In this document: positions 8,874 through 58,372 of the stretch, in pieces
Layout of the letters: each line of letters begins with the position of its first letter
Position numbering within the stretch: the stretch's first letter is position 1
Assembly: GCA_045539895.1 (NCBI GenBank)
Contig: JAZQGE010000055.1
Span: forward strand, 1,733 to 65,732
Origin: Acutalibacteraceae bacterium
GTDB taxonomy: Bacteria > Bacillota > Clostridia > Oscillospirales > Acutalibacteraceae
Direction: 5' to 3'
Length of the DNA stretch: 64,000 bases
Notes under the pieces: model-generated
What the model was told of the DNA's origin: nothing
The model's database searches: none
What the model saw: only the letters and a program-made list of their open reading frames with translations
Translations under genes and position numbers: made by a program

Positions 8874-8878
8874 AAAAT

Positions 8879-8912
8879 GAGCTTTCGATTTTTTCGAAAG
8901 CTCTCTTTTTTT
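8879..8912. terminator. Bidirectional intrinsic terminator between the convergent radical-SAM and EEP genes
   Basis: Hairpin GAGCTTTCG / CGAAAGCTC. It is flanked by an A-run upstream and TCTTTTTTTT downstream. Confidence 0.7.
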
Positions 8913-8918
8913 TAACTA

Positions 8919-9671: not shown

Positions 9672-9683
9672 AATTTTTTCACC

Positions 9684-9935: not shown

Positions 9936-9941
9936 TTTTTA

Positions 9942-11048: not shown

Positions 11049-11106
11049 GTCAGGTTCCCTCCGGTATAAGAGATATAGTTAATTATTCAGTAGTAGTATT
11101 AGTGTC

Positions 11107-11270
11107 TGTGAAATTTGTGGAAAAGTTCTTTAAACATTGAAACAGCTTAAAAAACGAAAAAATTGAAATGTGAAAATTTTAAGAAAAGTTTTTTACACTT
11201 TCCGCGTGAAAAATTAGAATGTGGAATATGTGAAAAAATCAATGTGGAAAGTGAAGAAAAGAGTGGAAAA
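11107..11270. promoter_or_regulatory. oriC: DnaA-box cluster in the dnaA-dnaN intergenic region (part of oriC)
   Basis: Repeated near-consensus DnaA boxes, written as the reverse of TTATCCACA: TGTGGAAAA (11116), TGTGAAAAT (11169), TGTGGAATA (11220), TGTGAAAAA (11229), TGTGGAAAG (11243), AGTGGAAAA (11262). The intergenic region is AT-rich and non-coding. Confidence 0.7.
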
Positions 11271-11279
11271 AATTTTTCA

Positions 11280-12584: not shown

Positions 12585-12759
12585 ACCGTACACATCCTTT
12601 CTTATAATATTTTTTTCATTACTATAAACACTGCGGGGTGAGCAGTTGAGATAGTATTCATTGTAAGGCTTATTACTTTTACCGTAACAGCCATAAGAGT
12701 ATATCACAAATCGGCCTCCTTTTCAACTTTTGCGGGAGGAGAAAGTTTTGAACAATATC

Positions 12760-12960
12760 TTGATTAAATGTGAAAAAGTCCTCCCATAAATAGTGCAAAA
12801 CAGGCCATTTTTTAATGTGATCAGGTTAAAAAACACGAAAAATTTCCAAAAAAAATTATTTATGATATTTAGGGTGATTTTTTGGCGGTTTTCACGAAAT
12901 TTTCTTTTTGATAAAATATTTACATTTTTTCACTTGACAAAGCTTAAATAATGGTATCTA
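12760..12960. promoter_or_regulatory. oriC: AT-rich region upstream of dnaA with weak DnaA-box-like motifs (candidate second oriC half / unwinding region and dnaA promoter)
   Basis: TGTGAAAAA at 12769 and TTTTCAC motifs near 12889 and 12925. There are long A/T runs. It coincides with the strand-orientation switch between dnaA (-) and rpsF (+). Confidence 0.45.
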
Positions 12961-13008
12961 AATAAAAGAGCAATGAAATAGCCGATAAAAAAATTGAACA
13001 AAAAATGC

Positions 13009-13037
13009 TTGACAGTTTTGGTTATTTCTGCTATAAT
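13009..13037 (+). promoter_or_regulatory. Consensus sigma-A promoter for rpsF-ssb-rpsR
   Basis: TTGACA (13009-13014), exact 17-nt spacer, TATAAT (13032-13037). About 85 nt upstream of rpsF. Confidence 0.75.
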
Positions 13038-13121
13038 CCATTTTTGCCGCTGTATATTTGGCGGTAAATCCTTGCTTCAGGGCAGAACCTGAGGCCAAAG
13101 ACCATAAGGAGGTGCAAAACA

Positions 13122-13409
13122 ATGTCAGCAAGCTACAATTACGAGATCATGATGGTTTTCTCAGTCGCTAACGGCGAAGAGGGTGCAAATGCTCTCCTCG
13201 AGAAATTCAAGGGTATGATCGAAGCAAACGGTACTGTCGACAACGTTGATGTATGGGGTAAGCGCAAGCTTGAATACCTTATCAATGACGAGGCAGAGGG
13301 CTTCTATGCAGTTATCAGCTATCAGAGTGCTCCCGAGTTCCAGAAAGAGCTTGACCGTGTACTCAAGATCACAGAAGGTGTTCTTCGTACAATGATCATC
13401 CGCAAGTAA
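13122..13409 (+). CDS. rpsF: 30S ribosomal protein S6
   Basis: 95 aa. YEIMMVF...WGKRKLEY signature. AAGGAGG RBS. Confidence 0.95.
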   Translation: MSASYNYEIMMVFSVANGEEGANALLEKFKGMIEANGTVDNVDVWGKRKLEYLINDEAEGFYAVISYQSAPEFQKELDRVLKITEGVLRTMIIRK

Positions 13410-13429
13410 TAATAAGGAGGAAAACCGCA

Positions 13430-13885
13430 ATGCTCAACTGCGCAGTTTTAATGGGTCGCCTTGTTGCAGATCCTGAGCTCCGTACTACTACTTCAGGAAT
13501 TTCCGTTACCTCATTCCGAATTGCTGTTGACCGCAGCTTTGTCCGTCAGGGCGAAGAGCGCCAGGCAGATTTTATCGACATCGTTGCATGGAGACAGACA
13601 GCAGATTTTGTCTGCCGCTATTTCCGCAAAGGCTCGATGATAGCTGTTCAGGGTTCAATCCAGACACGCAATTATGAGGATAAACAGGGTAACAAGCGTA
13701 CAGCCGTTGAGGTTGTTGCAGACAATGTAAGTTTCTGCGGCTCAAAGGCTGAAAGCGGCACACAGGGCGCATCCCGCCCATTTGAAAGCGCTGTCCCCGC
13801 TGCAGCACCTGCTGCATCATATGCTTCGGGCAGCATGGGAGATTTTGAATCCATCGATGACGATGACGATTCACTCCCCTTCTAA
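13430..13885 (+). CDS. ssb: Single-stranded DNA-binding protein
   Basis: 151 aa. OB-fold N-terminus MLNCAVLMGRLVADPELRTT. Acidic C-terminal tip DDDDSLPF. Confidence 0.95.
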   Translation: MLNCAVLMGRLVADPELRTTTSGISVTSFRIAVDRSFVRQGEERQADFIDIVAWRQTADFVCRYFRKGSMIAVQGSIQTRNYEDKQGNKRTAVEVVADNVSFCGSKAESGTQGASRPFESAVPAAAPAASYASGSMGDFESIDDDDDSLPF

Positions 13886-42450: not shown

Positions 42451-43029
42451 TTAAAAAGTATATGTTTCGGGACAAACTTCCATAATCTTTTCACGAAGTG
42501 CAAGAAAATCCTCAAGCGCTTCGGGCTTTTGTCTGGGGTTACGGAGCAATGCTGCAGGGTGGAAGGTGCCCATCATAAGTGTACCGTTTTTCTCAATGAA
42601 CTGACCGTGCTGTTTGGTCACCTTGAAATCGGGTGATATAAGGCGGGTTGCAGAAATTCTGCCAAGGCACACAATGATTTTGGGCTTGAGCAGTCTTGTC
42701 TGTTCGCGAAGCCAGCCAATGCACATATCCTGCTCTGCGGGCAGAGGATCGCGGTTCTGCGGAGGGCGGCATTTTACCATGTTTGCAATGTAGATGTTCT
42801 TTTTTCTGTCAAGGTCAACGGCGGCAAGGAATTTGTCAAGAAGCTGACCGCCTCTGCCGACAAACGGCTCACCCTGCAGGTCCTCGTTCGCGCCGGGACC
42901 TTCACCTATGAAAAGTACCTTTGCATTTTCATTGCCCACTCCGAAAACAAGCTTTGTTCTTGTTTTTCCAAGCTCGCATTTCTGACAGCCCATGCAGTCA
43001 TTTTTGAGCTGTTCCCAATTATCATACAT
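42451..43029 (-). CDS. Uracil-DNA glycosylase, family 4
   Basis: 192 aa. [23 protein letters not shown] motif. N-terminal Cys pattern C..C for the Fe-S cluster. HPAALLR near the C-terminus. Confidence 0.85.
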
Positions 43030-43041
43030 AAAAATTACTCC

Positions 43042-44121
43042 CTAAAGCCGCTCTACAGTGAAATCGAGGTCTGCAATGCGGCTGATATTTTCTTCGTCAC
43101 AGCAGGTGATGAAAACCTGTCTGTTCTCAAAATGTTTTACAAGATATTTTTGCCTTTGCGGATCAAGCTCACTGAAAACATCGTCAAGCAGAATGACAGG
43201 CTCTTCACCCGTAACCTGTGTTATGATGTCCGCTTCTGCAAGCTTTAAGGAAAGTGCAGCAGAGCGTTGCTGACCCTGTGAGCCGAACTGTCTTGCGCTC
43301 TTGCCCGAAAGCTCAACGGAAAAATCCTCGCGGTGAGCACCTACGCTTGTTGTGCAGTGTTCAATATCCGTCTGCCTTTTTTCATACAGTGCCTTCATAA
43401 GGCTTTCGGCAATTTCTTTTCTGCCCTTTGCTTTTTCGCGGGCATATTCTTTATATCTGAGTTCGAGCATTTCCTTGCCCGAAGAAATTTCGTTGTAAGT
43501 TTTGCAGGCAAAGTCCTTCAATTTTTCAAGGTAGTTCATCCTGCTGTCAATTATAATTGCGCCTTTTTTTGCAAGCTCCACGTCCCATATATCGAGCATG
43601 GCAAGCATTGCAGGGTTTTCTCTTGCGGCATGCAGTGTTGCATTGCGCTGTTTTAGTGCCTTGCCGTATTCAAGTATTGTTTTTGCGTAGTTGGGTTTAA
43701 GCTGGCTGAGCGCAATGTCCAGAAACTTTCTGCGCTCGTCCGGTCCTTCTTTAATAATTGATAGGTGAAGCGGAGTGAACACAACACTTGTAAATTCACC
43801 CATCATCTTTCTGCCCGACGGCAGGTTGATACCGTTCAACGAAAAGTGTCTTTTGTCGTCAATTTTAATCTCTGCCTCTTTGTTTCTGCTGCCTGAGAAA
43901 AACTCCATTTTAAGCTTTGCCTCATCGCAGTCAAATTGCACAACATCCTTATCCTTTGTACTGCGGAAGCTGCGGCAGCCCGTAAAAAGCCAGATGCTTT
44001 CAATAAGGTTTGTTTTGCCCAGTCCGTTTTCACCGCAAATGATGTTGACCCCACTGCCCGGATTATATTCACGGGCAGTGAGGTTGCGGAAGTTTTCGGT
44101 TTTCAGGCTGATAACCTTCAT
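43042..44121 (-). CDS. recF: DNA replication and repair protein RecF
   Basis: 359 aa. N-terminal FRNL...GENGLGKTNLIESI Walker A. Signature SQGQQRS. Walker B ILLDDVFSELD. Confidence 0.93.
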   Translation of the reverse strand: MKVISLKTENFRNLTAREYNPGSGVNIICGENGLGKTNLIESIWLFTGCRSFRSTKDKDVVQFDCDEAKLKMEFFSGSRNKEAEIKIDDKRHFSLNGINLPSGRKMMGEFTSVVFTPLHLSIIKEGPDERRKFLDIALSQLKPNYAKTILEYGKALKQRNATLHAARENPAMLAMLDIWDVELAKKGAIIIDSRMNYLEKLKDFACKTYNEISSGKEMLELRYKEYAREKAKGRKEIAESLMKALYEKRQTDIEHCTTSVGAHREDFSVELSGKSARQFGSQGQQRSAALSLKLAEADIITQVTGEEPVILLDDVFSELDPQRQKYLVKHFENRQVFITCCDEENISRIADLDFTVERL

Positions 44122-44139
44122 TTTACACCAACTGATAAT

Positions 44140-45063
44140 TTATCTGATAATCTTACCTTTATCAAAGAGAATTACGCCGAAGCCGTGACCTGTTTTGCCG
44201 CCTGCTTCAACATATTCTGCAAAAGCTCTGCGCAGAGAATTATCTCTGGGCCACTGCTCAACAGGAAGGTCGGAGAAGCGTTCAAAAATTCTCCAGCCGT
44301 CGTTGAATTCTTCTTTTTCCTCTTGTTCAAGCAGTTCAAAATCGCGGATGAATTTTGCTGTGTTGCTCTTTTCAGGCAGGAAGTCAAGATACTTATCATA
44401 AAGCAGCCATGAGCCGCAGCCGAAGAGGATCGGGCCGTCGCCGAATTCGCCTTTGAAGAATTCCTGAGCCTTTTTGTATGCGTCAAATCTTACCTCATCT
44501 GTAAGCGGAACACCCGATGAGGGGATGTGGAAGTTTACATATTTGTCGCCTGCGTGAAGCACATGTCCGCTTGAAAGCACCTTTCCGTCGTGCTTTTCGT
44601 CAAGCTCTCGAAGCTCAAACTGGAATCTGCCAAGTGCAAAGCGGTCAACCTCATACTGACCGTGGAACCAGCCGCCAACAAATGTACCCCAGCAGTTTTC
44701 GCAGTCGCGGCACTCGATAAGCTTATACTTGAGGTCGCACATAAGATCGTAATACATATCATCGCTCAGACCTTTTTCGCGGTAGCGCTTGAGAAGCTCC
44801 TCGCTGCAGCAAAGCAGGAAAACCATGTGCATTGTCTGCTCCGGCTTGTTCATTTTCTTTGCGAGCTCTGTCACTTTTTCGAGCGACTTGCCAAGCTCAT
44901 TTGCCCAGGGGAACATATATTCCTCATATATTTTATCAAATTCATCGCCCCACTCCTTGTTGTCATCAAGAAGCTGGAATACTTTTGTGAAGCAGTACTG
45001 TGCCTCTGCAGGGAAACCGATTTTTTCCATAATTTCACGGTTGAACTGAGAATTGTGAAGCAT
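44140..45063 (-). CDS. Conserved hypothetical protein (possibly acyltransferase-like; function not established)
   Basis: 307-aa soluble protein with no motif I can assign confidently. It resembles clostridial proteins annotated as acyltransferase-domain/DUF proteins, but this is from memory only. Confidence 0.3.
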   Translation of the reverse strand: MLHNSQFNREIMEKIGFPAEAQYCFTKVFQLLDDNKEWGDEFDKIYEEYMFPWANELGKSLEKVTELAKKMNKPEQTMHMVFLLCCSEELLKRYREKGLSDDMYYDLMCDLKYKLIECRDCENCWGTFVGGWFHGQYEVDRFALGRFQFELRELDEKHDGKVLSSGHVLHAGDKYVNFHIPSSGVPLTDEVRFDAYKKAQEFFKGEFGDGPILFGCGSWLLYDKYLDFLPEKSNTAKFIRDFELLEQEEKEEFNDGWRIFERFSDLPVEQWPRDNSLRRAFAEYVEAGGKTGHGFGVILFDKGKIIR

Positions 45064-47230: not shown

Positions 47231-50200
47231 ATGCTTTACAAGAAAAACACTACCCCCATGACCGAGGATTTGTTCCGCAACCCAACAAGTGAATACCGTG
47301 CCACACCATTTTGGGCGTGGAACTGTGAGCTCAATCAGGCTTTGCTTGACAAGGAAATCGGCTATATGCAGGATATGGGCTTCGGCGGCTTTCATATGCA
47401 TGTGCGCGTCGGTATGTCAACCGAGTACCTTTCAGATGATTTTATGGACCTTATCAAGGGCAGTATAAAGACCGCAAAGGATAAAAAGATGCTTGCCTGG
47501 CTTTATGATGAGGATAAGTGGCCTTCGGGTTTTGCAGGCGGACTTGTTACAAAAAAGAAAGAAAACAGAGAAAAATATCTGCTTTTTACACGCAAGGGCT
47601 ACGGTACAGGCAAAGGCTCTTCAAACGATTCCTCCGCCGCTGCAGTGCGTGAAGAAAACGGCTATCTGCTTGCTCGCTACGAGGTAGAGCTTGACGATAA
47701 CGGCTGTCTTAAAAATTACCGCAGACTCAGTGATGATGAGGCAAGTGAAAATTGTTGGTATGCCTATTGTGAAACTCAGGGCGAGAGCGATTGGTTCAAT
47801 CTGCAGACCTATGTTGATTCACTTTCACCTGCCGCAATGACAGATTTTATAAATATCACACACGAGAGATACAAGGAATGTGTTGGTGAGGATTTCGGCG
47901 AGGCAGTGCCGGCAATTTTCACCGATGAGCCTCAGGTTGCGCGCAAGAAAATGTTTGGCAAAGCAATTGGTGACAGTGATGCCTTCCTGCCCTATACAAC
48001 AGACTTTGCAGATACATACGGCAAGATGTACGGCGAAGAGCTTTTTGACAAGCTTCCTGAGCTTTTCTGGGAGCTTCCCGACGGCAAGGTTTCCGTTACA
48101 AGATACCGCTATCATGACCATGTTGCAGAGCGCTTTGCTGTAGCTTTTGCTGATAACATCGGCGGTTGGTGCGAAAGAAACGGCATTATGCTAACCGGTC
48201 ATATGATGGAAGAGCCTTCACTTGAAAGTCAGAATGCCGCAACGGGCGACTGTATGCGCTCCTACAGAGGCTTCCAGCTTCCCGGTATTGATATGCTCTG
48301 TGACAGCAGAGAATTTACAACAGCAAAGCAGTGTCAGTCTGCCGTGCATCAGTATGGCAGAGAGGGTATGCTCAGTGAGCTTTACGGTGTAACAGGCTGG
48401 GATTTCAAGTTTACGGGTCACAAGCTTCAAGGTGACTGGCAGGCAGTGCTCGGCGTTACGGTACGCGTGCCGCACCTTTACTGGGTTTCAATGAAGGGCG
48501 AGGCAAAGCGCGACTATCCAGCTTGCATCGGTCACCAGTCACCGTGGTATAAAGAATACCCTTATATCGAAGACCATTTTGCACGAGTCAACACAGCTAT
48601 GACACGCGGCAAGCCTGTAGTCAGAGTCGGTGTAATTCACCCGATTGAAAGCTACTGGCTCAGGTACGGTCCGCGCGAGCAGACAAGTGCAGTCCGCGAA
48701 GAAATGAACGAGCAGTTTATGCAGCTTGCTGACTGGCTTCTGTTTAATCTTGTTGATTACAACTATATTTGTGAAGCTAACCTTCCTGAGCAGATAAAGG
48801 GCACAAAGGTTGGTCAGATGCAGTACGATACAATTATCGTGCCCAACCTTCTCACAATCCGCGGCACAACGCTTGAATTTCTCAAGGAGTTTAAAAAGGG
48901 CGGCGGAAAGGTCATTTTTGCAGGCAGCCTGCCCGAATATGTCGATGCAGTGGAAAACGGCGAAGCAAAGGCTTTTGCTGCAGAAAATACGGTAATCGGC
49001 TGGTCGAAGATTCAGCTTATAAATGCACTTGAAGCAAACCGTGAAATTGATATGCGCGATGACAGGGGTGAAAGAACGGATAACCACATGTATCAGCTCC
49101 GTCAGGAGGGTGAGCACCGCTGGCTGTTTGTTGCGCCGATTAATCATCAGGCAGATCACTACGGCTGCTGGAGCGAAGATTATACACTCCGCATAAAGGG
49201 TGAGTATGTGCCTGAGCTGTGGAACACAATGGACGGCACGGTTAAAAAACTTGCCGCAGAGTACAGGCTTGGCGACACATTTGTTGATTTTGAGCTTTAT
49301 CCGCATGACAGTGTTCTGCTTAAGCTCATTCCCGGCAAGTCCGAAGCAAAGCCCGAACCGAGAAAAGAGAGAAAAGAAATCGGTTCACTTCCCTCAAAGG
49401 TGGCGGTTGAGCTTGCAGAGCCTAATGTTGCCGTGCTCGATATGCCTCAGTACAGCCTTAACGGTGGCGAGTGGAGAGAGCGCGAGGAAATTCTGCGCAT
49501 AACAGACGCACTCAAGGCTGAACTGAAAATGGAAAATGCCATTGCAGGCGGTGCTCAGCCGTGGCTTTTCGGTGTTGAAAAAGAAACCGAAACCGTTGAG
49601 CTTAAATACACTGTTTATTCCGATGTTGAGGTTGAAAATGTAACCCTTGCGCTTGAGGATTTTGACAAGAGCAAAGTAACTTTCAACGGTAAGGCTGTTC
49701 CGATGGTCAGCGCAGGCATTTATGTTGACGATTCAATAGAAAAAGTCAGCCTCGGCAAGCTTGAAAAGGGTGAAAATACTGTAATTATTTCCCGTTCCTT
49801 CGGTAAGGTTTCAACACTTGAGGCTGTTTATCTGCTCGGTGATTTCGGTGTGGAGCTTGCAGGCTCAACATATAAGATTACAGCACCCGTCCGCGAGCTT
49901 GAATTCGGCGACTGGACCCGTCAGGGACTTCCCTTCTATGGCGGCAATGTTACTTATAAATGCAAGGTACAGGGAAACGGCGAAGAGCTCAGCGTGATGA
50001 TTCCGCATTTTGTACAGCCTGTATGCACCGTTGATGTTGACGGTAAACGCACGGGTACGGTTGCTCTTGCTCCTTACACCGCACCGCTCGGAAAGCTCAG
50101 CGAAGGCGAGCACCTTGTGGAAATCACAGCCTACGGCAACCGCTACAATACCTTTGGCGCGCTTCATATGGCTGACCCTGCACGCAGCTGGTACGGACCG

Positions 50201-50296
50201 GATGCATGGCGAACAAAGGGCACTCGCTGGTCTTATGAATATGTTATCAGACCCGGCGGAATTACAGCCGCACCGATTGTAGTAAAGTACGAATAA
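47231..50296 (+). CDS. Large putative glycoside hydrolase (family uncertain)
   Basis: 1021 aa. The N-terminal YRATPFWAWNCELN...GFGGFHMH motif resembles uncharacterised glycosidase families. It is divergently arranged with GH127. Confidence 0.45.
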   Translation: MLYKKNTTPMTEDLFRNPTSEYRATPFWAWNCELNQALLDKEIGYMQDMGFGGFHMHVRVGMSTEYLSDDFMDLIKGSIKTAKDKKMLAWLYDEDKWPSGFAGGLVTKKKENREKYLLFTRKGYGTGKGSSNDSSAAAVREENGYLLARYEVELDDNGCLKNYRRLSDDEASENCWYAYCETQGESDWFNLQTYVDSLSPAAMTDFINITHERYKECVGEDFGEAVPAIFTDEPQVARKKMFGKAIGDSDAFLPYTTDFADTYGKMYGEELFDKLPELFWELPDGKVSVTRYRYHDHVAERFAVAFADNIGGWCERNGIMLTGHMMEEPSLESQNAATGDCMRSYRGFQLPGIDMLCDSREFTTAKQCQSAVHQYGREGMLSELYGVTGWDFKFTGHKLQGDWQAVLGVTVRVPHLYWVSMKGEAKRDYPACIGHQSPWYKEYPYIEDHFARVNTAMTRGKPVVRVGVIHPIESYWLRYGPREQTSAVREEMNEQFMQLADWLLFNLVDYNYICEANLPEQIKGTKVGQMQYDTIIVPNLLTIRGTTLEFLKEFKKGGGKVIFAGSLPEYVDAVENGEAKAFAAENTVIGWSKIQLINALEANREIDMRDDRGERTDNHMYQLRQEGEHRWLFVAPINHQADHYGCWSEDYTLRIKGEYVPELWNTMDGTVKKLAAEYRLGDTFVDFELYPHDSVLLKLIPGKSEAKPEPRKERKEIGSLPSKVAVELAEPNVAVLDMPQYSLNGGEWREREEILRITDALKAELKMENAIAGGAQPWLFGVEKETETVELKYTVYSDVEVENVTLALEDFDKSKVTFNGKAVPMVSAGIYVDDSIEKVSLGKLEKGENTVIISRSFGKVSTLEAVYLLGDFGVELAGSTYKITAPVRELEFGDWTRQGLPFYGGNVTYKCKVQGNGEELSVMIPHFVQPVCTVDVDGKRTGTVALAPYTAPLGKLSEGEHLVEITAYGNRYNTFGALHMADPARSWYGPDAWRTKGTRWSYEYVIRPGGITAAPIVVKYE

Positions 50297-50303
50297 AAAG
50301 TCA

Positions 50304-50339
50304 AAAAGTCACCTCAAGAATTTTTGAGGTGACTTTTTT
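50304..50339. terminator. Bidirectional terminator between the convergent glycosidase and TIR-Sel1 genes
   Basis: 14-bp hairpin AAAAGTCACCTCAA/TTGAGGTGACTTTT flanked by A/T runs on both sides. Confidence 0.75.
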
Positions 50340-50377
50340 CGTGATTTATATTTTTGGGTTTGAATAATTTGAATAAA

Positions 50378-51967
50378 TTATTTGTTCATATAAAGCTCTT
50401 CAATTTTTTCCATCATAAATTTTCCCTGTACAAATCCATGATGATAAGATTTTTTAAAAAGCTCGTAGGCTTTATCAATATCGGGTTCACAGCCTCTGCC
50501 GAGGAAGAAAAGCATGCCTAAAATATATTCGCCTTCCTCATCGCCGTTATCGGCAGAGATTTTGGCAAAATTAAATGCCTTCTGATAATTCTGGTATTTC
50601 GGATACTGATATATAACCGACAGATGAAGCACTGACAAAAGATGTCCCTGTTCTGCTGCCAGCAAATGATATTCCAGTGCTTTGTCCAGATTCGTTTCAA
50701 CATGGCCGTGCTCATACATATATCCCAGTGTATAACAAGCGTTTATATGTCCGGCAGCAGCTGCGATTTTGAAATTATCCTGAGCAATACGGAAATCAAT
50801 CATAAAGCCGTTAGAGCCTCTGAAATAGAGCAAACCTAACTGATAATATACATCTGCATCACAGTAGCCTGCACTAATGGCATGGTGAAAATAGAAAGCG
50901 GCTTTCATATAGTCCGGCTGCTTTGATTCGCTGAGCACGCCCTGCATGTAAAGCTTTCCCAATTCGTAGCCGGCCTGCGGAAAATTATCAATAATGCGTG
51001 TGTATAAATCGGCAGCTTTTTTAAACTCTCCGTATCTTAAGTAGAAATCGGCTAGACCTTGAACTGCAATATTGTCGCCGGATTCGATAACAGATAAATA
51101 ATACTGCTCTGCTGAGTCGTAATCATACTCACAGCCCAGACCTAAGGACATCATAATTGCTACCTGCTGCTTGGCATAGCCGCTTTCTTCAGCAGCAATT
51201 TTGTAGCATTCCAAAGATTTTGCGTAGGACTGCTTTTCTCTCGGCACAACTCCTTTGTAATGCAGCTTTCCGAGCATTACAAGGGATAATATACCAAACT
51301 CATCCTTTGTTTCGGCTGCTTTCTGATACCATTTGCAGGCTTCGGTAAAGCTTCTGGCAGAGCCTCCCTTTTCATCGGCTATGCCGTAAAAATACATGTT
51401 TCCCAGTTCGTACATTGCCTTTGTGTTGCCGGCTTCAGCTAATTTAAGGTTTTCCTGAAAAGCTTCATTGATGTCATAATCGGGGTTGCTTTGATATACA
51501 TTTTTAAAAGAGCTCTTATCGGCAGGCTGGGATTTTATCCATTCAATCAAATAATTCAGCGGAGATTTGCGGTAATTATCGGTTACGGAAATTGCATCGG
51601 TATCCGGCAAAAAGCGCAGAGCTTCGGGCATATCTTCTTTGTCCTTGGGCATGGAAACACCGGGCATAAGAAGAGGGATTATGTTTTTACCGTTGTTATG
51701 TGCAATGAGAATCTCTTCTCTCACCCAGTCGATTTTTTCGTTTCTCATCAACTGTTCAAGACAGGCTTTGGAAACTATCAGCAAAAAGTCCTTACAGGAT
51801 TGGATGGCATTGCGTAATCTGTCCGGAAAACTTCCTGCATGCTGTTCGTTGGGATTATAATAAACATCATAACCCATCTCTTCAAGGTCAGCACATAATC
51901 TTGCCGCAAAGTTATTACCTTCGCCATCGTTTTTATATGATATAAAAATATCTCTGGTATTTGACAT
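50378..51967 (-). CDS. TIR-domain protein fused to Sel1-like (SLR/TPR-family) repeats
   Basis: 529 aa. The N-terminal ~140 aa (DIFISYKNDGEGNNFAARLCADLEEMGYDVYYN...DFLLIVS...IDWVREEILIA) matches the bacterial TIR_2 pattern, including the W-x-x-E glutamate. The C-terminal ~380 aa are 8-10 repeats of the Sel1 pattern (A..WY.KAAE.G...A...LG.MY..G). Confidence 0.8.
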   Translation of the reverse strand: MSNTRDIFISYKNDGEGNNFAARLCADLEEMGYDVYYNPNEQHAGSFPDRLRNAIQSCKDFLLIVSKACLEQLMRNEKIDWVREEILIAHNNGKNIIPLLMPGVSMPKDKEDMPEALRFLPDTDAISVTDNYRKSPLNYLIEWIKSQPADKSSFKNVYQSNPDYDINEAFQENLKLAEAGNTKAMYELGNMYFYGIADEKGGSARSFTEACKWYQKAAETKDEFGILSLVMLGKLHYKGVVPREKQSYAKSLECYKIAAEESGYAKQQVAIMMSLGLGCEYDYDSAEQYYLSVIESGDNIAVQGLADFYLRYGEFKKAADLYTRIIDNFPQAGYELGKLYMQGVLSESKQPDYMKAAFYFHHAISAGYCDADVYYQLGLLYFRGSNGFMIDFRIAQDNFKIAAAAGHINACYTLGYMYEHGHVETNLDKALEYHLLAAEQGHLLSVLHLSVIYQYPKYQNYQKAFNFAKISADNGDEEGEYILGMLFFLGRGCEPDIDKAYELFKKSYHHGFVQGKFMMEKIEELYMNK

Positions 51968-51995
51968 AACTGCCTCCTTTGAGCTTTATGAATAC

Positions 51996-52024
51996 ATTGT
52001 ACTATATCTGACAAAAAACGGCAA
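51996..52024 (-). promoter_or_regulatory. Candidate sigma-A promoter of the TIR-Sel1 gene
   Basis: On the minus strand: TTGCCG (52024-52019), 17-nt spacer, TACAAT (52001-51996). It is followed by AAAGGAGG 5 nt before the ATG. Confidence 0.4.
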
Positions 52025-52046
52025 TATATTTTGAGTGTGTTTTTTG

Positions 52047-52081
52047 ACAAAAAATCCACGGTGAACCGGCACCGTGGATTT
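52047..52081 (-). terminator. Intrinsic terminator of ppa
   Basis: Hairpin AATCCACGGT/ACCGTGGATT followed on the minus strand by a U-tract. It separates ppa from the TIR-Sel1 gene. Confidence 0.75.
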
Positions 52082-52087
52082 AATCTT

Positions 52088-53687: not shown

Positions 53688-55892
53688 TTATGTCACGATT
53701 TCATATGCTGCTAATGCATCAATCTGCAAGGGGTAGGTTTCCATAACTCTGCCGTCATAAATTACCGTTACAATATCACCTTTTTTAAGCATGGAGGTGC
53801 TGATTTGCGGTGCATATGACAACATTGACCCAAGGCGCACCGTTACGGGTGTACCTTTCTTGATTCCGCCCTGGTCAGAGGTAAGCTCCATGTATATCGT
53901 GTTGTCGGATGCAGAGGTTACCTTGCCTGTAAGCTTCGGTTCAGCTTCGGGGCTGATGTCAGCTGTTACACCGTTGATTTCATCGGAAACGGTTGTAATT
54001 TCATAATTTTTCATACTGTCTGCTATAAATTCAACACAGCTGCTGTAATCTACCACGGACATTTTTGCAGGACCTATAATCAGGTCACGGTTACCGTCGA
54101 TAGTGTTGCGCTTTATTATTGTGTAGTTTTTGTAAAGATAAATCTTTGTGCCGCCGTCTTTGATTATATCGTTTGCTATTTTACCTGCTTTTAAATCCTC
54201 TTCTGCCTTTTTTAGCAGAATGTCGGCATCCATTTTGCCTGAGTTGAGAGCATCACCGATATAAATATCCTTACCATCAAGTGTGATATATGCTTTATCA
54301 AGGCAGTAGAGATAGGCATGGTAACCGTTGTTTTTGTAAAAGCCTTCGTCAGTCATCCATGTTACGCCTGTGTTTTCACTTTTTGTCACCGTCAACTCAT
54401 ATTCGCTCTTTGCTTCAAGCATAACGGTGGTCATTTCAACACTGTGCTGTTCGGTGGTATCGTTTTCGCTTAACCCAAAATACTCTGCAGCCTGATGTCT
54501 GCAGTCTGCCTGCAGTTCTTCAACATAGGTCTGCGTGTCGTAGTCAACGCCAATGGGGAATTTCGCCTGAAGGTCTTTAGTATACTGTGCGCCCATACCC
54601 GGCTCCCAATATTCCGTCAGGGCATAAGTGTCCTCTCCTGTTGAAATATCCTTTTCGACAAGGAAGCTGAGCGCAAGCGGAGTTATACCGCCGCTTACAT
54701 CAACAAGCTTGCCGTTTTTCTCGCTGTATTCTTCATAAAGCGCAATGAGATAAACTGTAATCTTTTTGTCGGAATTATCGTCGGTTAATGATTTTGTTGC
54801 AAGCACCTTGTGTGCCTCGAAGCTCATCATCCCGTCGAGGTATTTGCCTTGGTTGTGCTCAATTATGTTCAGGCTTATAACGCGGTCAAGCTTGTCGCTT
54901 ATTTTTGGTGTGTAATCTGTTTTTTCGCTTTCCTTAGGGTTTGTAAGGAAGCAGACGGCTGTTATGATACAAACCGCAACTGCCGCAATAACAACCCAGA
55001 AAGCTGGTTTTTTATAGTTCATAACTCCTTTAATCCTTTCTTTAACGCCGACCTCGCCGAAGGCAAGCGGACATGCTGCAATTGACCTGCGGCTGATGCT
55101 TGCGTTAAGCAGTGCCGTTGAGTAGCTGCGGCGGCAATCCTCACCCAAATCGCGGATAACCTTTTCATCGCAGGCGGCTTCAATATCTCTGCAAAGCAGA
55201 ATGTATGCCGCCCACATAAGGGGGTTAAACCAATGCATGCTCAGCAGTAAAAAGCCAAGCGGCTTTATGATGTGGTCAAGGCGCTTGATGTGTGTCTTTT
55301 CGTGTGCAATTACGAGCGGAACATCTGCTTCGTTTATTTTATAGGGCAGATAGATTTTCGGTCTGATTAATCCCAAAACAAACGGCGATGAAACCGACTC
55401 GCTCTGATATATGTTACCTTCCTTTTTTGTGGCTGTGCGCAGGCTCAGTTCAAGTCGCATAAAGCTTATGAAAGCGTAAGCCGCCATAGCAACCGCACCG
55501 ATAATCCAAACAAGTGCGGCAATACCCGCAATTTCAACACCGGCACCGGCTGATATATCCGCGCTGTTATATAAGTCGGTTACCGTGCTGTCAACAGCGG
55601 AAAAGCCTGTGTTCACTTCAAAGCTGTTGTTATAAATTGCAGAAGGGTTTACCGTCTGCGTGCTCGGCACAAGGCTGAATATGCTCTCGATTGAAACAGG
55701 CAGAACAAGACGCAGTGCAACGATGCCCCAAAGCGCGCAGGAAAGCCATTTCGGAGCTTTTCTGAACACAAGGCGCACTGCAATTACCGCAAGCACAGCC
55801 CAGCCTGCAGTTATGCTGATGTTTACAAGCTCAAGAAACGGTGCGGAAATAAATATCATAAACCGTTCAAGCAGATATATAATATCTTCCAT
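53688..55892 (-). CDS. BlaR1/MecR1-family M56 peptidase signal transducer with a long non-PBP extracellular C-terminal region
   Basis: 734 aa. N-terminal TM helices. HEKTHIKRLDH zinc-metalloprotease motif. The C-terminal ~420 aa lack SxxK/KTG motifs. Directly downstream of a BlaI-family repressor gene. Confidence 0.8.
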   Translation of the reverse strand: MEDIIYLLERFMIFISAPFLELVNISITAGWAVLAVIAVRLVFRKAPKWLSCALWGIVALRLVLPVSIESIFSLVPSTQTVNPSAIYNNSFEVNTGFSAVDSTVTDLYNSADISAGAGVEIAGIAALVWIIGAVAMAAYAFISFMRLELSLRTATKKEGNIYQSESVSSPFVLGLIRPKIYLPYKINEADVPLVIAHEKTHIKRLDHIIKPLGFLLLSMHWFNPLMWAAYILLCRDIEAACDEKVIRDLGEDCRRSYSTALLNASISRRSIAACPLAFGEVGVKERIKGVMNYKKPAFWVVIAAVAVCIITAVCFLTNPKESEKTDYTPKISDKLDRVISLNIIEHNQGKYLDGMMSFEAHKVLATKSLTDDNSDKKITVYLIALYEEYSEKNGKLVDVSGGITPLALSFLVEKDISTGEDTYALTEYWEPGMGAQYTKDLQAKFPIGVDYDTQTYVEELQADCRHQAAEYFGLSENDTTEQHSVEMTTVMLEAKSEYELTVTKSENTGVTWMTDEGFYKNNGYHAYLYCLDKAYITLDGKDIYIGDALNSGKMDADILLKKAEEDLKAGKIANDIIKDGGTKIYLYKNYTIIKRNTIDGNRDLIIGPAKMSVVDYSSCVEFIADSMKNYEITTVSDEINGVTADISPEAEPKLTGKVTSASDNTIYMELTSDQGGIKKGTPVTVRLGSMLSYAPQISTSMLKKGDIVTVIYDGRVMETYPLQIDALAAYEIVT

Positions 55893-55895
55893 AGC

Positions 55896-56246
55896 TTATT
55901 CTCCTATAATTCTGCGGATTTCTTCAATTTCCTTTTCACTAAGTTTTTTGCTTTTTGCAAATGCGGCAATAAACGCAGGCACCGAGCCGTCAAACTTCTT
56001 TTCAACAAGCTCGTCAATCTCGGATGCCTGCACCTCCTCCTTTGAAACAAGCGAGGTGACAACCGTGTTTTCGTTTTTCACAACTCCTCTGTCAGACAGT
56101 CTTTTTATTACGGTGTAGGTTGTGGTTTTGGACCAGCCGAGTTGCTCCTTGCAAAGCTCGGAAAGCTCGCGTGATGTTATCGGCTCGTTCTCCCACAAAA
56201 TCTGACAGAAGCGGTATTCGCTTTCAAAAATCTTGGGCACGGACAT
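55896..56246 (-). CDS. BlaI/MecI/CopY-family transcriptional repressor
   Basis: 116 aa. Winged-helix N-terminus (ILWENEPITSRELSELCKEQLGWSKTTTYTVIKRLSDRGVV). Confidence 0.85.
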   Translation of the reverse strand: MSVPKIFESEYRFCQILWENEPITSRELSELCKEQLGWSKTTTYTVIKRLSDRGVVKNENTVVTSLVSKEEVQASEIDELVEKKFDGSVPAFIAAFAKSKKLSEKEIEEIRRIIGE

Positions 56247-57790: not shown

Positions 57791-58372
57791 ATGAGAATCT
57801 GTGTTTACGGTGCAGCATCACCGACAATTGACCGGGAATATATCCGTCAGGTTGAAATAATGGGCGAAGAAATGGCAAAGCGCGGACATTCGCTTGTTTT
57901 CGGCGGCGGCGGCAACGGCCTTATGGGTGCTGCAGCAAGAGGTGTTACAAAAGGCGGCGGTCACATTATCGGTGTTATACCGAAGTTTTTTGAGGAAGAG
58001 GCCGTCGAAGCGATTTACGATAAGTGCGATGAACTTATAATGCCCGAAACAATGCGCGAGCGCAAGCAGATTATGGAGGACAATGCGGACGCATTTATAG
58101 TTACCCCAGGCGGTATCGGCACCTATGAAGAGTTTTTTGAAATTCTCACATTAAAACAGCTGTGCCGTCATAATAAACCGATTGCGGTTTTCAACATTCT
58201 CAATTATTATGACGGACTCAATGATGTTATGGAACAGGCAACGCAGAAAAATTTCATCCGTGAAAACTGTGAAGCGCTGTATTATATTACCGATAATCTC
58301 GACAAATTACTTGATTATATTGAAGCTCCTATTGATGAAACACTCACCGTCAAACAGCTCAAAGACGGCTAA
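57791..58372 (+). CDS. LOG-family (TIGR00730) nucleotide 5'-monophosphate nucleosidase
   Basis: 193 aa. GGGGNGLMG and PGGIGTYEEFFE motifs. Confidence 0.85.
   Translation: MRICVYGAASPTIDREYIRQVEIMGEEMAKRGHSLVFGGGGNGLMGAAARGVTKGGGHIIGVIPKFFEEEAVEAIYDKCDELIMPETMRERKQIMEDNADAFIVTPGGIGTYEEFFEILTLKQLCRHNKPIAVFNILNYYDGLNDVMEQATQKNFIRENCEALYYITDNLDKLLDYIEAPIDETLTVKQLKDG

What the first reader, a model, noticed from the sequence alone, without database searches (positions are those of the whole stretch)
50378..51967. Stand-alone TIR-domain / Sel1-repeat fusion in an AT-rich, self-contained transcription unit: candidate single-gene NADase-type immune or effector module
The N-terminal ~140 aa carry the bacterial TIR pattern (DIFISY..., DFLLIVS..., and WVREE with the glutamate that is catalytic in TIR NADases). 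The remaining ~380 aa are 8-10 Sel1-like repeats, a classical protein-recognition scaffold. The gene is isolated: it converges on the left-hand glycosidase gene and shares a bidirectional terminator with it. The upstream ppa has its own terminator. The gene has a plausible own promoter (TTGCCG-17-TACAAT) and a strong RBS. It is visibly AT-richer than its flanks: spot counts give 14/60 G+C at 50401-50460 and 22/60 at 51001-51060, against 31/60 at 49501-49560 in the neighbouring gene. This suggests horizontal acquisition into a housekeeping/glycan-utilisation region. Bacterial TIR domains are the NAD+-degrading or signal-generating core of Thoeris and other anti-phage systems. A TIR enzymatic head fused to a repeat-type sensor in one polypeptide resembles other one-gene sensor-effector defence proteins. 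I do not know of a characterised system with this TIR-SLR architecture.
Basis: partly seen in the sequence, partly recalled or inferred. Interest (0 to 1): 0.8.

Follow-up and report, generated by a model that had tools for sequence, protein, structure and literature searches.

The report
SARM1-like TIR enzyme with Sel1 sensor
A self-contained gene in a gut Clostridia chromosome joins a predicted NAD-destroying enzyme head, of the type found in the human nerve-degeneration enzyme SARM1, to a protein-binding repeat tail; its large, untested family looks like a one-protein sense-and-kill immune module.

Summary
ORF 50378-51967 (-) encodes 529 aa: a TIR domain (aa 1-145), a 20-aa linker and ten Sel1-like hairpins. 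It has its own promoter, RBS and terminators. There is no NTPase, signal peptide or partner gene.

New here: the TIR is specifically SARM1-type. The family profile scores 100 bits (E 1e-27) against SARM1 and TIR-1. Every other solved TIR scores 22 bits or less. E85 aligns with SARM1 E642 and is invariant in 71 homologues.

The family is large (over 1000 clusters at 90% identity) and uncharacterised. In seven of 14 distinct loci it lies among further TIR genes, STAND/NLR-like genes, or relaxase, recombinase and TraG genes. Tandem paralogues keep TIR heads 68-94% identical, but their solenoids are only 38-41% identical.

In this genome the gene is a solitary copy. Four same-lineage assemblies carry it at the same site. 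Three related species with conserved left-hand synteny lack it there. It is under strong purifying selection (dN/dS 0.04-0.06).

The AT-richness is real but weak (GC3 z = -0.35), and the acquisition is not recent.

Best reading: an autonomous, solenoid-gated NADase used in phage or mobile-element conflict. Both the activity and the defence role are untested. I rate it a new variant of a known kind, interest about 0.5.

The parts
50378..51967 (-). Complete CDS of the TIR-SLR protein (529 aa plus stop)
   Evidence: ORF list. Pfam TIR_2 and Sel1 both above gathering score. Same-lineage orthologues in L004, L005 and L006 (P0121 and P0125, members of the 90%-identity cluster of P0001). dN/dS 0.04-0.06.
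51533..51967 (-). TIR domain (aa 1-145), SARM1-type
   Evidence: phmmer against the PDB returns only SARM1 and TIR-1 among TIRs, E 5e-17. The family profile scores 100 bits against SARM1 and 22 bits or less against any other TIR. Foldseek gives TM 0.91 and rmsd 1.8 A to SARM1 TIR 9mw1_B. AF2 model.
51713..51715 (-). Codon of E85, the predicted catalytic glutamate, within DWVREE
   Evidence: Aligns with SARM1 E642. Invariant in 71 of 71 homologues. Coordinates checked by translation.
51827..51853 (-). BB-loop equivalent (aa 39-47, PNEQHAGSF). G45 and the invariant F47 align with SARM1 G601 and F603.
   Evidence: Alignment. F47 invariant. The only segment with pLDDT below 50 (aa 42-44) lies here.
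51473..51532 (-). Inter-domain linker (aa 146-165). It is too short to hold an NTPase, and it is where identity between tandem paralogues breaks down.
   Evidence: pLDDT about 74. Translation. Identity profile of paralogues.
50381..51472 (-). Sel1-like repeat solenoid (aa 166-529), ten helical hairpins: the predicted sensor and regulatory module
   Evidence: Pfam Sel1 E 1.6e-32. 20 helices in the AF2 model. Foldseek top hits are SLR proteins: EsiB/c5321 (4bwr), LceB (8sxq), LpnE (6deh) and SEL1L.
51996..52024 (-). Candidate sigma-70 promoter, TTGCCG-17-TACAAT
   Evidence: Consensus scan, 9 of 12 matches. Sequence. Consensus match only.
51973..51980 (-). Ribosome-binding site AAAGGAGG, with GGAGG 5 nt upstream of the ATG
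   Evidence: Direct reading of the sequence.
50303..50338 (.). Hairpin with an A-run before and a T-run after: an intrinsic terminator usable by both convergent genes
   Evidence: Terminator scan on the minus strand and the sequence. Inverted repeat I1, 18-nt arms, 94% complementary.
52052..52081 (-). Terminator of the upstream ppa gene. It insulates the TIR-SLR unit from read-through.
   Evidence: Terminator scan (listed on the + strand; the hairpin arms are a perfect inverted repeat) and, read on the minus strand, a T-run directly after the stem. Inverted repeat I13, 12-nt arms, 100% complementary.
50242..52087 (.). Lineage-specific segment: the gene plus both intergenic regions. It has no counterpart in the related species L012.
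   Evidence: blastn homology with L012 stops at 50241 and resumes at 52088. L012 carries FGGY, Ldh_2, malic enzyme and alpha-amylase genes there instead.

Best explanation
The gene encodes a cytoplasmic, autonomous sensor-effector protein.

Shown:
- The N-terminal domain is a SARM1-type TIR domain. It has the catalytic glutamate and the BB-loop and active-site residues that align with SARM1 S567, Y568, G601, F603, D637, W638 and E642.
- The C-terminal domain is a ten-hairpin Sel1-like solenoid.
- The linker is only 20 residues, with no NTPase, SAM or other oligomerisation domain.
- There is no conserved partner gene.
- Tandem paralogues in relatives keep the TIR head but differ widely in the solenoid.

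Inferred:
- In the resting state the solenoid keeps the TIR monomeric or occluded. The ARM solenoid does this in SARM1, and the TPR/Sel1 domain does it in Avs proteins.
- Binding of a specific ligand to the solenoid relieves this block and drives TIR-TIR assembly through the BB loop. The ligand is most likely a phage or mobile-element protein.
- Assembly forms the composite active site that cleaves NAD+ into nicotinamide and ADP-ribose or cyclic ADP-ribose.
- NAD+ collapse then arrests the infected cell, as in abortive infection.

In this genome the gene is a solitary copy that has long been resident. It was acquired at the base of this species-level lineage, at a variable junction between a glycosidase gene and ppa.
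For: - TIR_2 and Sel1 both score above Pfam gathering thresholds.
- The family TIR profile scores about 100 bits (E about 1e-27) against SARM1 and TIR-1 over the whole domain. The next best solved TIR scores 22 bits.
- Foldseek gives TM 0.91 and rmsd 1.8 A to the SARM1 TIR.
- E85 aligns with E642 and is invariant. F8, I9, S10, Y11, F47 and D60 are invariant, and D80, W81 and R83 are at least 90% conserved.
- The AF2 model has pLDDT 92, with a short linker and a flexible BB loop.
- No partner gene was found. The intergenic regions are 81 and 120 bp. PADLOC finds nothing relevant within 8 kb. A census of 103 neighbouring ORFs shows no recurrent partner.
- Seven of 14 distinct family loci have conflict or mobile-element contexts:
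  - L003: an array of TIR genes (five neighbouring TIR-domain genes besides the queried TIR-SLR gene, six in all; two of the neighbours are further TIR-SLR genes) next to MobA/MobL and a recombinase.
  - L007: TIR-NACHT-WD40, two TIR-SLR genes and a TIR-only gene.
  - L009: a recombinase, a VWA-PP2C-kinase cluster, TraG and two TIR-SLR genes.
  - L002 and L015: TraG, NACHT-Sel1 and TIR-TPR.
  - L024: TIR-NB-ARC.
  - L036: VapE, MobA/MobL and an SNF2-DUF4391-AAA_15 cluster.
  - L001: two adjacent TIR-SLR paralogues.
- Tandem paralogues have TIR domains 68-94% identical but solenoids only 38-41% identical. The break lies at the linker.
- The gene is absent at the syntenic site in three related species.
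- Both domains are under strong purifying selection, so the gene is functional.
- Precedents exist for solenoid-gated NAD-cleaving defence proteins: Avs5 (PMC12931631) and BcTpr (preprint 10.1101/2023.05.26.542521).
Against: - There is no biochemical or phenotypic evidence for any family member.
- In this window the gene lies among housekeeping and glycan-utilisation genes, not in a defence island. The L011 copy is likewise solitary.
- The solenoid shows no diversifying selection between orthologues (dN/dS 0.04-0.05). That would also fit a conserved cellular ligand.
- No relatives were found on viral contigs, sequenced phages or plasmids.
- PADLOC and NCBIfam hold no model for this architecture.
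- SARM1 H685 is not conserved. It aligns with D130.
- The mutual orientation of the two domains is uncertain (pTM 0.65). Autoinhibition by the solenoid is therefore pure inference.
- The neighbour census had no matched background control.
Confidence: 0.5

Rival explanations
1. A physiological NAD+ or metabolic-state switch, meaning a housekeeping-like role. In this reading the solenoid senses a conserved cellular metabolite or protein, as the SARM1 ARM domain senses the NMN/NAD+ ratio. The TIR then lowers NAD+ to enforce dormancy, a stress response or a sporulation-linked shutdown, with no invader involved.
For: - The copy here is solitary and stably inherited at a chromosomal site among core genes. 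dN/dS is as low as for ppa (0.04-0.06), and dS matches the neighbours.
- The solenoid is as constrained as the TIR between orthologues.
- L011 is also a solitary copy among metabolic genes.
- The TIR is SARM1-type, and SARM1 is itself a metabolic sensor (plus established knowledge of SARM1).
Against: - The gene is absent from three related species that keep the flanking synteny.
- Seven of 14 distinct loci lie on mobile elements or next to STAND or TIR conflict genes.
- Tandem paralogues with widely divergent solenoids argue for many different ligands.
Confidence: 0.2
2. A Thoeris-like signal generator. In this reading the TIR does not deplete NAD+. It makes a cyclic ADPR-type or other NAD-derived messenger that activates an effector encoded elsewhere in the genome.
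For: - There are weak PADLOC and NCBIfam similarities to ThsB and ThcB4 TIR domains (E 7e-4 and 1e-5).
- In relatives, extra TIR genes, Card1-like genes and RyR-domain genes lie nearby and could be signal-responsive.
- Many bacterial TIRs are known to make cADPR isomers (PMC9092222, PMC10022894).
Against: - No ThsA-like, SLOG/SIR2, Macro or SAVED/CARF effector lies within 8 kb in the window. The LOG/SLOG protein at 57791-58372 has no PADLOC hit.
- No partner recurs across 14 loci.
- The TIR is far closer to the NAD-consuming SARM1 than to ThsB-type TIRs.
Confidence: 0.12
3. A host-directed or community-directed factor. In this reading a gut commensal releases the TIR-SLR protein, by lysis or non-classical export. 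The protein then interferes with host TIR signalling or alters NAD-derived metabolites in the gut. The Sel1 repeats would mimic eukaryotic interaction modules, as in Legionella LpnE or Helicobacter Hcp proteins.
For: - The best structural matches for the solenoid are host-interaction SLR proteins: EsiB/c5321, LceB, LpnE and HcpC.
- The family is common in human-gut metagenome contigs.
- TIR NADase products of gut bacteria have been detected in vivo (PMC9092222).
Against: - The protein has no signal peptide or transmembrane segment. The TIR beta-strand A starts at residue 5.
- No secretion-system genes lie nearby.
- Known Tcp virulence TIRs (BtpA/TcpB, PdTIR, TcpC) do not appear among the profile hits at E of 1 or less.
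- The contexts in relatives are intracellular conflict genes such as STAND NTPases and relaxases.
Confidence: 0.08
4. Mobile-element competition or addiction cargo. In this reading the protein acts for the element that carries it, excluding rival plasmids, ICEs or phages or stabilising the element. The copy in this chromosome would be a domesticated remnant.
For: - The gene is linked with TraG coupling proteins, MobA/MobL relaxases, serine recombinases and VapE-like primases in L002, L003, L009 and L036.
Against: - No mobility gene, att-like repeat or insertion scar lies around the window copy.
- This rival overlaps mechanistically with the best explanation. The biochemistry is the same and only the beneficiary differs, so genomics alone can hardly separate the two.
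Confidence: 0.1

Closest known systems
SARM1 / C. elegans TIR-1 TIR domain (animal NAD+ hydrolase)
   Same: - SARM1 and TIR-1 are the only solved TIRs that match by sequence. A single query gives E 5e-17 and the family profile gives E 1e-27, both over the full domain.
- Identity to human SARM1 TIR is 29.5% (41 of 139 aligned positions). Foldseek gives TM 0.91 and rmsd 1.8 A.
- The catalytic Glu and residues Y568, G601, F603, D637 and W638 have aligned equivalents.
- Both proteins combine the TIR with an alpha-solenoid in one polypeptide.
   Different: - The domain order is reversed. Here the TIR is N-terminal. In SARM1 the order is ARM-SAM-SAM-TIR.
- There are no SAM domains to pre-form an octamer.
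- The solenoid is Sel1-like, not ARM.
- SARM1 H685 is not conserved.
- This is a bacterial cytoplasmic protein.
- SARM1's TIR is already known to branch within a bacterial clade (PMC13142454). The relationship is therefore expected in kind, although this family has not been singled out.
STAND/NLR-like anti-phage proteins with NADase heads and TPR/Sel1 sensors (Avs, e.g. Avs5 SIR2-nSTAND3-TPR/Sel1; bacterial TIR-NACHT and TIR-NB-ARC proteins)
   Same: - The logic is the same: an N-terminal NAD-consuming effector and a C-terminal solenoid that senses and autoinhibits (PMC12931631).
- Such proteins are physical neighbours of family members: TIR-NACHT-WD40 in L007, NACHT-Sel1 in L015 and TIR-NB-ARC in L024.
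   Different: - There is no NTPase domain. Only a 20-aa linker lies between head and solenoid.
- Activation therefore cannot use nucleotide-driven oligomerisation.
Thoeris ThsB (TIR signal generator paired with the ThsA effector)
   Same: - It is a bacterial TIR domain with a catalytic Glu.
- There are weak model similarities (PADLOC ThsB1 E 7e-4, NCBIfam ThcB4 E 1e-5).
   Different: - No ThsA-type partner is present.
- All scores fall far below the family cut-offs.
- The TIR belongs to the SARM1-type clade.
- It carries a large fused solenoid.
BcTir/BcTpr two-gene anti-phage system of Bacillus cereus (preprint 10.1101/2023.05.26.542521)
   Same: - An NAD-cleaving N-terminal head is fused to a C-terminal TPR solenoid that tunes its activity.
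- It occurs in Firmicutes.
- It was reported to deplete NAD+ on infection.
   Different: - Its active head is a MilB-like glycosidase, not a TIR.
- Its TIR is a separate, catalytically dead protein in which the Glu is replaced by Lys.
- It is a two-gene operon, whereas this is one gene with an intact Glu.
Bacterial SLR proteins (EsiB/c5321, LpnE, LceB, HcpC, AlgK) and eukaryotic SEL1L
   Same: - They share the fold and repeat type of the C-terminal 364 residues.
   Different: - Those proteins are secreted or periplasmic scaffolds without an enzymatic head.
- This protein has no export signal and carries a TIR.

Membership tests
TIR domain superfamily (Pfam TIR_2, PF13676) | Significant match to the family profile above the gathering score | tested here: met
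   47.8 bits against a cut-off of 28, E 2.6e-12, aa 7-104.
TIR domain superfamily (Pfam TIR_2, PF13676) | Flavodoxin-like alternating beta/alpha fold with a BB loop | tested here: met
   AF2 pLDDT about 90 over aa 5-145. Foldseek TM 0.91 to the SARM1 TIR.
Enzymatic (NADase) TIRs | Catalytic glutamate in the alpha-C helix (SARM1 E642 equivalent) | tested here: met
   E85 aligns with E642. It is invariant in 71 of 71 homologues.
Enzymatic (NADase) TIRs | Measurable NAD+ cleavage that depends on that glutamate | not testable with these tools
   Needs an enzyme assay of wild type against E85A.
SARM1-type TIR clade | Closer in sequence to SARM1/TIR-1 than to plant, TLR-adaptor, Thoeris, AbTIR or Tcp-type TIRs | tested here: met
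   Profile against the PDB gives SARM1 and TIR-1 at 94-100 bits. All other TIRs score 22 bits or less. This was tested against solved structures only, not by a phylogeny.
SARM1 orthologues | ARM-SAM-SAM-TIR architecture | tested here: not met
   No ARM or SAM domains. The TIR is N-terminal and followed by Sel1 repeats.
Sel1-like repeat (SLR) proteins (PF08238) | Multiple Sel1 repeats that form an alpha-solenoid | tested here: met
   111 bits against a cut-off of 30.7, six stretches. Ten hairpins in the model. Foldseek top hits are SLR structures.
Thoeris | A TIR protein (ThsB) encoded next to a ThsA effector (SIR2 or TM domain plus SLOG, or Macro) | tested here: not met
   No ThsA-like hit in any of 10 neighbours within 8 kb. 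ThsB models match only at E 7e-4 or weaker.
STAND / Avs / bacterial NLR-like defence proteins | A central P-loop NTPase (NACHT, NB-ARC or nSTAND) between effector and repeats | tested here: not met
   No NTPase family in the Pfam scan at E of 1 or less. The linker is 20 aa.
Bacterial Tcp virulence TIR proteins (TcpC, BtpA/TcpB, PdTIR, TirS) | C-terminal TIR of the Tcp type with N-terminal targeting or coiled-coil region, delivered to host cells | tested here: not met
   The TIR is N-terminal. No Tcp-type structure appears among the profile hits at E of 1 or less. No export signal. Delivery itself cannot be tested here.
Anti-phage defence systems in general | Enrichment next to known defence or mobile-element genes | tested here: inconclusive
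   This holds for 7 of 14 distinct family loci. It does not hold for the window copy or L011. No matched background control was run.
Anti-phage defence systems in general | Protection against phage when expressed | not testable with these tools
   Needs a phage-challenge experiment.

The most novel reading that the evidence does not exclude
TIR-SLR proteins would be a widespread, NTPase-independent class of one-protein immune receptors in gut Clostridia. A nearly constant SARM1-type NADase head would be recombined onto a repertoire of divergent Sel1 solenoids, each recognising a different invader protein. Ligand-templated solenoid assembly would replace both the STAND NTPase of NLRs and the SAM ring of SARM1. 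On this reading the family is a living example of the bacterial stock from which the animal SARM1 TIR was acquired, and it would show that solenoid-gated autoinhibition of this TIR type predates animals.
Probability: 0.2. Interest if true: 0.75.

Novelty: new variant of a known kind. Interest (0 to 1): 0.5.

Why it matters
If the model is right, this is the simplest form so far of a TIR immune receptor: a sensor solenoid and an NADase head in 529 residues, with no NTPase, no partner gene and no second messenger. Several things would follow.

- It would offer a tractable bacterial system for asking how SARM1-type TIR domains are held inactive and then switched on. That question matters for work on axon degeneration.
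- It would add an abundant, unannotated defence or conflict family to the gene catalogue of human-gut and rumen Clostridia. Current defence finders do not flag it.
- The constant-head, variable-solenoid paralogue arrays suggest a natural library of specificities. These could be mined for phage or mobile-element triggers.
- Gut bacterial TIR NADases also release NAD-derived metabolites in vivo (PMC9092222), so a family this common could contribute to that pool.

If the model is wrong, the gene is still a well-conserved, lineage-specific protein of unknown role.

Tried and rejected
1. Composition as evidence for foreign origin. Gene-by-gene GC, GC3, expected GC from amino-acid content and codon-usage distance show only mild deviation. 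dnaA and dnaN are far more AT-rich. I rejected this as meaningful evidence.
2. Insertion scars. No flanking direct or inverted repeats exist beyond the two terminator hairpins. The window has no tRNA genes, and no integrase or transposase lies nearby.
3. Phage or plasmid carriage. The viral-contig scan found nothing. tblastn against 50,697 phage and 72,556 plasmid records hit only generic Sel1 regions.
4. A Thoeris partner. The LOG/SLOG protein at 57791-58372 and nine other neighbours gave no relevant PADLOC hit. The one neighbour that does hit is an SMC/AAA_15 ATPase at 43042-44121, and it is conserved in relatives that lack the TIR gene.
5. A hidden NTPase or other domain in the linker. None was found.
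6. A regulatory RNA near the gene. Rfam gave no hit in the whole window.
7. Domain shuffling with the neighbouring NACHT-Sel1 protein of L015. Only generic repeat similarity was found.
8. A eukaryotic SARM1 among the close relatives. P0345 had SARM1-like geometry but is a bacterial DUF4062-NACHT-TIR protein.
9. An exact look-up of the window protein (P0001) in the contig index found nothing. I used cluster members P0121 and P0125 instead.
10. My first family alignment (A1) trimmed the start codon by mistake. I rebuilt it as A2.
11. Literature. No paper was found that characterises a TIR-Sel1 protein.
Full report
OBSERVATION

The ORF at 50378-51967 on the minus strand is real. It is 529 aa long and starts with ATG.

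Pfam assigns TIR_2 at E 2.6e-12 (47.8 bits against a gathering score of 28, aa 7-104). It assigns Sel1 at E 1.6e-32 (111 bits against 30.7, six stretches).

An AlphaFold2 model built on a 71-sequence family alignment has mean pLDDT 92. It shows a TIR fold at aa 5-145, a 20-residue linker at aa 146-165 (SQPADKSSFKNVYQSNPDYD) and 20 helices. The helices form ten Sel1-like hairpins at aa 166-528.

No other domain is present. There is no NTPase, no signal peptide and no transmembrane segment.

The transcription-unit features are all in the sequence:
- A hairpin at 50303-50338 has an A-run before it and a T-run after it, so it can terminate both convergent genes.
- A separate hairpin terminator for ppa lies at 52052-52081.
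- A TTGCCG-17-TACAAT promoter-like site lies at 52024-51996.
- The RBS AAAGGAGG has GGAGG 5 nt before the ATG.

COMPOSITION

The gene is AT-richer than its two neighbours: 41.1% GC against 48.7% and 45.2%. It is not an outlier among the window's 48 large ORFs. For GC, z = -1.2. For GC3, z = -0.35.

From its amino-acid content and the local codon usage one expects 44.2% GC. Its synonymous-codon distance ranks 3rd of 31 genes, about +1.8 sd.

The most AT-rich genes in the window are dnaA and dnaN, with GC3 of 28-30%. Composition is therefore at most a faint hint of foreign origin.

WHAT THE TIR IS

The most informative new result is that this TIR is specifically of the SARM1 type.

A single-sequence search of all PDB chains with aa 1-165 returned, among TIR domains, only human SARM1 and C. 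elegans TIR-1. The E-value was 5e-17 and the alignment covered aa 2-143. No bacterial or plant TIR reached E = 10.

A profile of the family's TIR domain raised SARM1 and TIR-1 to about 100 bits (E about 1e-27). All other solved TIRs stayed at 22 bits or less (E of 1.5e-3 or weaker). These include RPP1, RUN1, TIR-STING, AbTIR, SIGIRR and the TLRs.

Foldseek agrees. The first TIR hits are SARM1 TIR structures, with TM 0.91 (normalised to the target) and rmsd 1.8 A. Sequence identity to human SARM1 TIR is 29.5%.

In the alignment:
- E85 corresponds to the catalytic E642.
- S10 and Y11 correspond to S567 and Y568.
- G45 and F47 correspond to the BB-loop residues G601 and F603.
- D80 and W81 correspond to D637 and W638.
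- SARM1 H685 is not conserved. It aligns with D130.

E85, F47, S10, Y11 and D60 are invariant in 71 family members. D80, W81 and R83 are at least 90% conserved.

The only very low-confidence stretch of the model, aa 42-44, lies in the BB-loop equivalent. This fits a mobile loop.

SARM1's TIR is already known to branch inside a bacterial clade (PMC13142454, which cites earlier work). The kinship is therefore expected in kind. I found no paper that singles out this family.

THE FAMILY

The word-indexed search found more than 1052 clusters at 90% identity. The top 120 are nearly all TIR_2 + Sel1 proteins of 520-540 aa, 42-66% identical to the query over their full length (a few shorter fragments are among them).

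An exhaustive search with the TIR domain alone found 5047 representatives at 50% identity with E of 1e-3 or less. Of these, 931 have E of 1e-10 or less and 23 have E of 1e-30 or less. The last group is mostly the TIR-SLR architecture.

The same TIR type also occurs in other architectures:
- TIRx4-Sel1
- TIR-TIR-PP2C
- TIR-DnaA-ATPase-TIR
- DUF4062-NACHT-TIR

Source names and contig titles place the family in gut and rumen Clostridia (Acutalibacteraceae, Oscillospiraceae). Many of the contigs are human-gut metagenome contigs.

PADLOC 2.0 and NCBIfam contain no model for the architecture. They give only weak hits to the TIR part.

GENOMIC HISTORY OF THIS COPY

Three other assemblies of the same lineage (L004, L005, L006) carry the gene at the same position, between ppa and the 1021-aa putative glycosidase. 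This holds although nearby genes differ between them.

Synonymous divergence of the gene from L004 and L005 is dS 0.29 and 0.71. This lies within the range of its core neighbours, 0.22-0.91. dN/dS is 0.04-0.06, equally low in the TIR and in the solenoid, and as low as for ppa.

Three related species were found through the 1021-aa anchor protein, at 80%, 75% and 66% identity. They keep the left-hand synteny UDG-ATPase-NAT-GH127-1021aa but lack the gene there. In L012 four metabolic genes (FGGY kinase, Ldh_2, malic enzyme and alpha-amylase) fill the gap up to ppa.

Nucleotide homology with L012 stops at 50241 and resumes at the ppa stop codon, 52088. The lineage-specific segment is therefore just the gene and its two intergenic regions.

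No repeats, tRNA genes or mobility genes flank the segment.

In summary, the gene is accessory at genus level. It was gained at a variable junction and has long been fixed and strongly constrained in this lineage. I could not check whether the three relatives carry a copy elsewhere in their genomes.

CONTEXT IN RELATIVES

After removing redundancy, 51 full-length family ORFs fell into 22 groups and 14 distinct loci with usable flanks.

Seven loci lie in conflict or mobile-element neighbourhoods:
- L003 has an array of TIR genes — five neighbouring TIR-domain genes besides the queried TIR-SLR gene, six in all, two of the neighbours being further TIR-SLR genes — beside a MobA/MobL relaxase and a serine recombinase.
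- L007 has TIR-NACHT-WD40, two TIR-SLR genes and a TIR-only gene.
- L009 has a serine recombinase, a VWA-PP2C-kinase cluster, Card1-like and RyR genes, two TIR-SLR genes and TraG.
- L002 and L015 carry the closest non-conspecific homologue (66-67% identity). It lies with TraG, a NACHT-Sel1 protein and a TIR-TPR protein.
- L024 has a TIR-NB-ARC protein.
- L036 represents the most prevalent human-gut group (17 contigs). It has a VapE-like primase, a MobA/MobL relaxase and an SNF2-DUF4391-AAA_15/21 cluster.
- L001 has two adjacent TIR-SLR paralogues.

A census of 103 neighbouring ORFs found no recurrent partner. It did find strong matches to defence components: McrBC, RT_UG29, IetA, MzaA and an HKD+Snf2 protein.

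Other copies are solitary among metabolic genes, namely the window copy and L011.

This census has no matched background, so I treat the association as qualitative.

CONSTANT HEAD, VARIABLE SOLENOID

Tandem paralogues keep TIR domains that are 68-94% identical, while their solenoids are only 38-41% identical.

In the L007 and L003 pairs, identity is 85-100% through aa 140. It falls across the linker and stays at 10-78% (mostly 20-50%) in the solenoid. At the DNA level only nt 13-591 remain alignable, at 83% identity.

The domain boundary is thus also a recombination or gene-conversion boundary. The solenoid is the module that has diversified. This is the pattern expected of a specificity-determining sensor joined to a generic effector.

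It is the strongest genomic argument for the sensor-effector model. It must be weighed against the lack of diversifying selection between orthologues.

MECHANISM

Shown:
- The TIR is SARM1-type and has an intact catalytic site.
- It is joined through a short linker to a ten-hairpin Sel1 solenoid.
- The gene has no conserved partner and is autonomously transcribed.

Inferred from established knowledge of TIR NADases:
- TIR NADases need TIR-TIR assembly through the BB loop to form the active site.
- SARM1 is held inactive by its ARM solenoid.
- Avs5 uses a TPR/Sel1 domain as both sensor and lock (PMC12931631).

From this I infer that the solenoid keeps the TIR inactive. Binding of a ligand, probably an invader protein, would then nucleate oligomerisation. 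NAD+ would be hydrolysed, and the cell would arrest.

The preprint on BcTpr (10.1101/2023.05.26.542521) gives a tested precedent for an NAD-cleaving head tuned by a fused C-terminal TPR domain in phage defence. Its head is not a TIR, however, and the system has two genes.

I put about 0.75 on the protein being an active Glu-dependent NADase. I put about 0.5 on the full statement, including the conflict role.

RIVALS

The main rivals are:
- a physiological NAD+ or dormancy switch (0.2)
- a Thoeris-like signal generator with a distant effector (0.12)
- mobile-element competition cargo (0.1)
- a host-directed factor (0.08)

The evidence for and against each is given in the rival-explanations section.

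COMPARISON AND NOVELTY

The protein is a member of the TIR superfamily, of the SARM1-type TIR clade and of the SLR repeat class.

It is not a SARM1 orthologue, because it has no ARM or SAM domains. It is not a Thoeris system, because there is no ThsA. It is not a STAND/Avs protein, because there is no NTPase. It is not a Tcp-type effector.

It probably works like an Avs or SARM1-type gated NADase, but with less machinery.

The architecture is common in databases. As far as PADLOC 2.0, NCBIfam and seven literature searches show, it is unnamed and untested.

I rate it a new variant of a known kind.

VERDICT

The argument from composition is weak, and the acquisition is old rather than recent. 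The defence role is plausible but unproven.

- the specific kinship with SARM1
- the size and gut prevalence of the family
- the constant-head, variable-solenoid paralogue arrays

Three points lower it:
- the general idea of a TIR head plus a repeat sensor is familiar
- this copy is not in a defence island
- nothing has been tested experimentally

Overall interest is 0.5.

Noticed in passing
window 5867-13885: The window contains the chromosomal replication-origin region: mnmE (5867-7243, -), dnaN (9942-11048, -), dnaA (11280-12707, -) and SSB (13430-13885, +). dnaA and dnaN have the lowest GC3 of all ORFs in the window (28-30%).
   Followed up: partly
L002 6026-10362; L009 5016-8502: A small RyR-domain protein and a large protein with faint Card1-endonuclease similarity recur just upstream of TIR-SLR or TIR-TPR genes. 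Both loci are ICE-like elements with TraG, and L009 also has a serine recombinase. These could be a functionally linked module, because eukaryotic RyR channels respond to cADPR. Not analysed further.
   Followed up: no
L003 3730-5595; L018 6405-9875: An AAA/FtsH-like protein with a Peptidase_M41 domain lies upstream of TIR genes in two unrelated loci — immediately upstream of the TIR-SLR gene in L018, and upstream of the TIR gene array in L003. The L018 version has two AAA modules.
   Followed up: no
L009 1022-4915: A VWA - PP2C phosphatase - transglutaminase-like - Ser/Thr kinase gene cluster lies on the same element as two TIR-SLR genes. It resembles TerY-P-type conflict modules.
   Followed up: no
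P0279, P0261, P0258, P0345: The same SARM1-type TIR clade occurs in unusual architectures: four tandem TIR domains plus Sel1 repeats (1046 aa), TIR-TIR-PP2C, TIR-DnaA-like ATPase-TIR, and DUF4062-NACHT-TIR.
   Followed up: partly
window 47231-50296: The 1021-aa neighbour has no Pfam hit above threshold here. Many homologues carry PF17132 (GH106, alpha-L-rhamnosidase-like), and it sits next to a GH127 beta-L-arabinofuranosidase gene. It is probably a divergent glycoside hydrolase.
   Followed up: partly
window 42451-45063: A UDG - SMC_N/AAA_15 ATPase - NAT_N/GNAT_C acyltransferase cluster is conserved in all relatives examined. The ATPase matches PADLOC 'mad3' at E 4e-31 and more weakly AriA, PtuA and GajA. 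Its role is unclear, and it is independent of the TIR gene.
   Followed up: partly
window 53688-56246; L005 5168-8116: There is a BlaI/BlaR1-type repressor and M56 sensor-protease pair. The sensor protein is 734 aa here and in L004 but 864 aa in L005, so its C-terminal sensor part is variable.
   Followed up: no
window 62774-63253: A 159-aa ORF has the highest GC (55.8%) and GC3 (67%) in the window. It may be spurious or foreign.
   Followed up: no
window 57791-58372: A LOG/SLOG-cluster-4 protein (PF03641, PF18306) lies 6 kb from the TIR gene. SLOG domains bind TIR products in Thoeris ThsA, but this protein has no PADLOC hit. The same-lineage assemblies L004 and L005, which also carry the TIR-SLR gene, have it at the same position, so that conservation says nothing about linkage to the TIR gene; it looks like an ordinary LOG enzyme.
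   Followed up: partly
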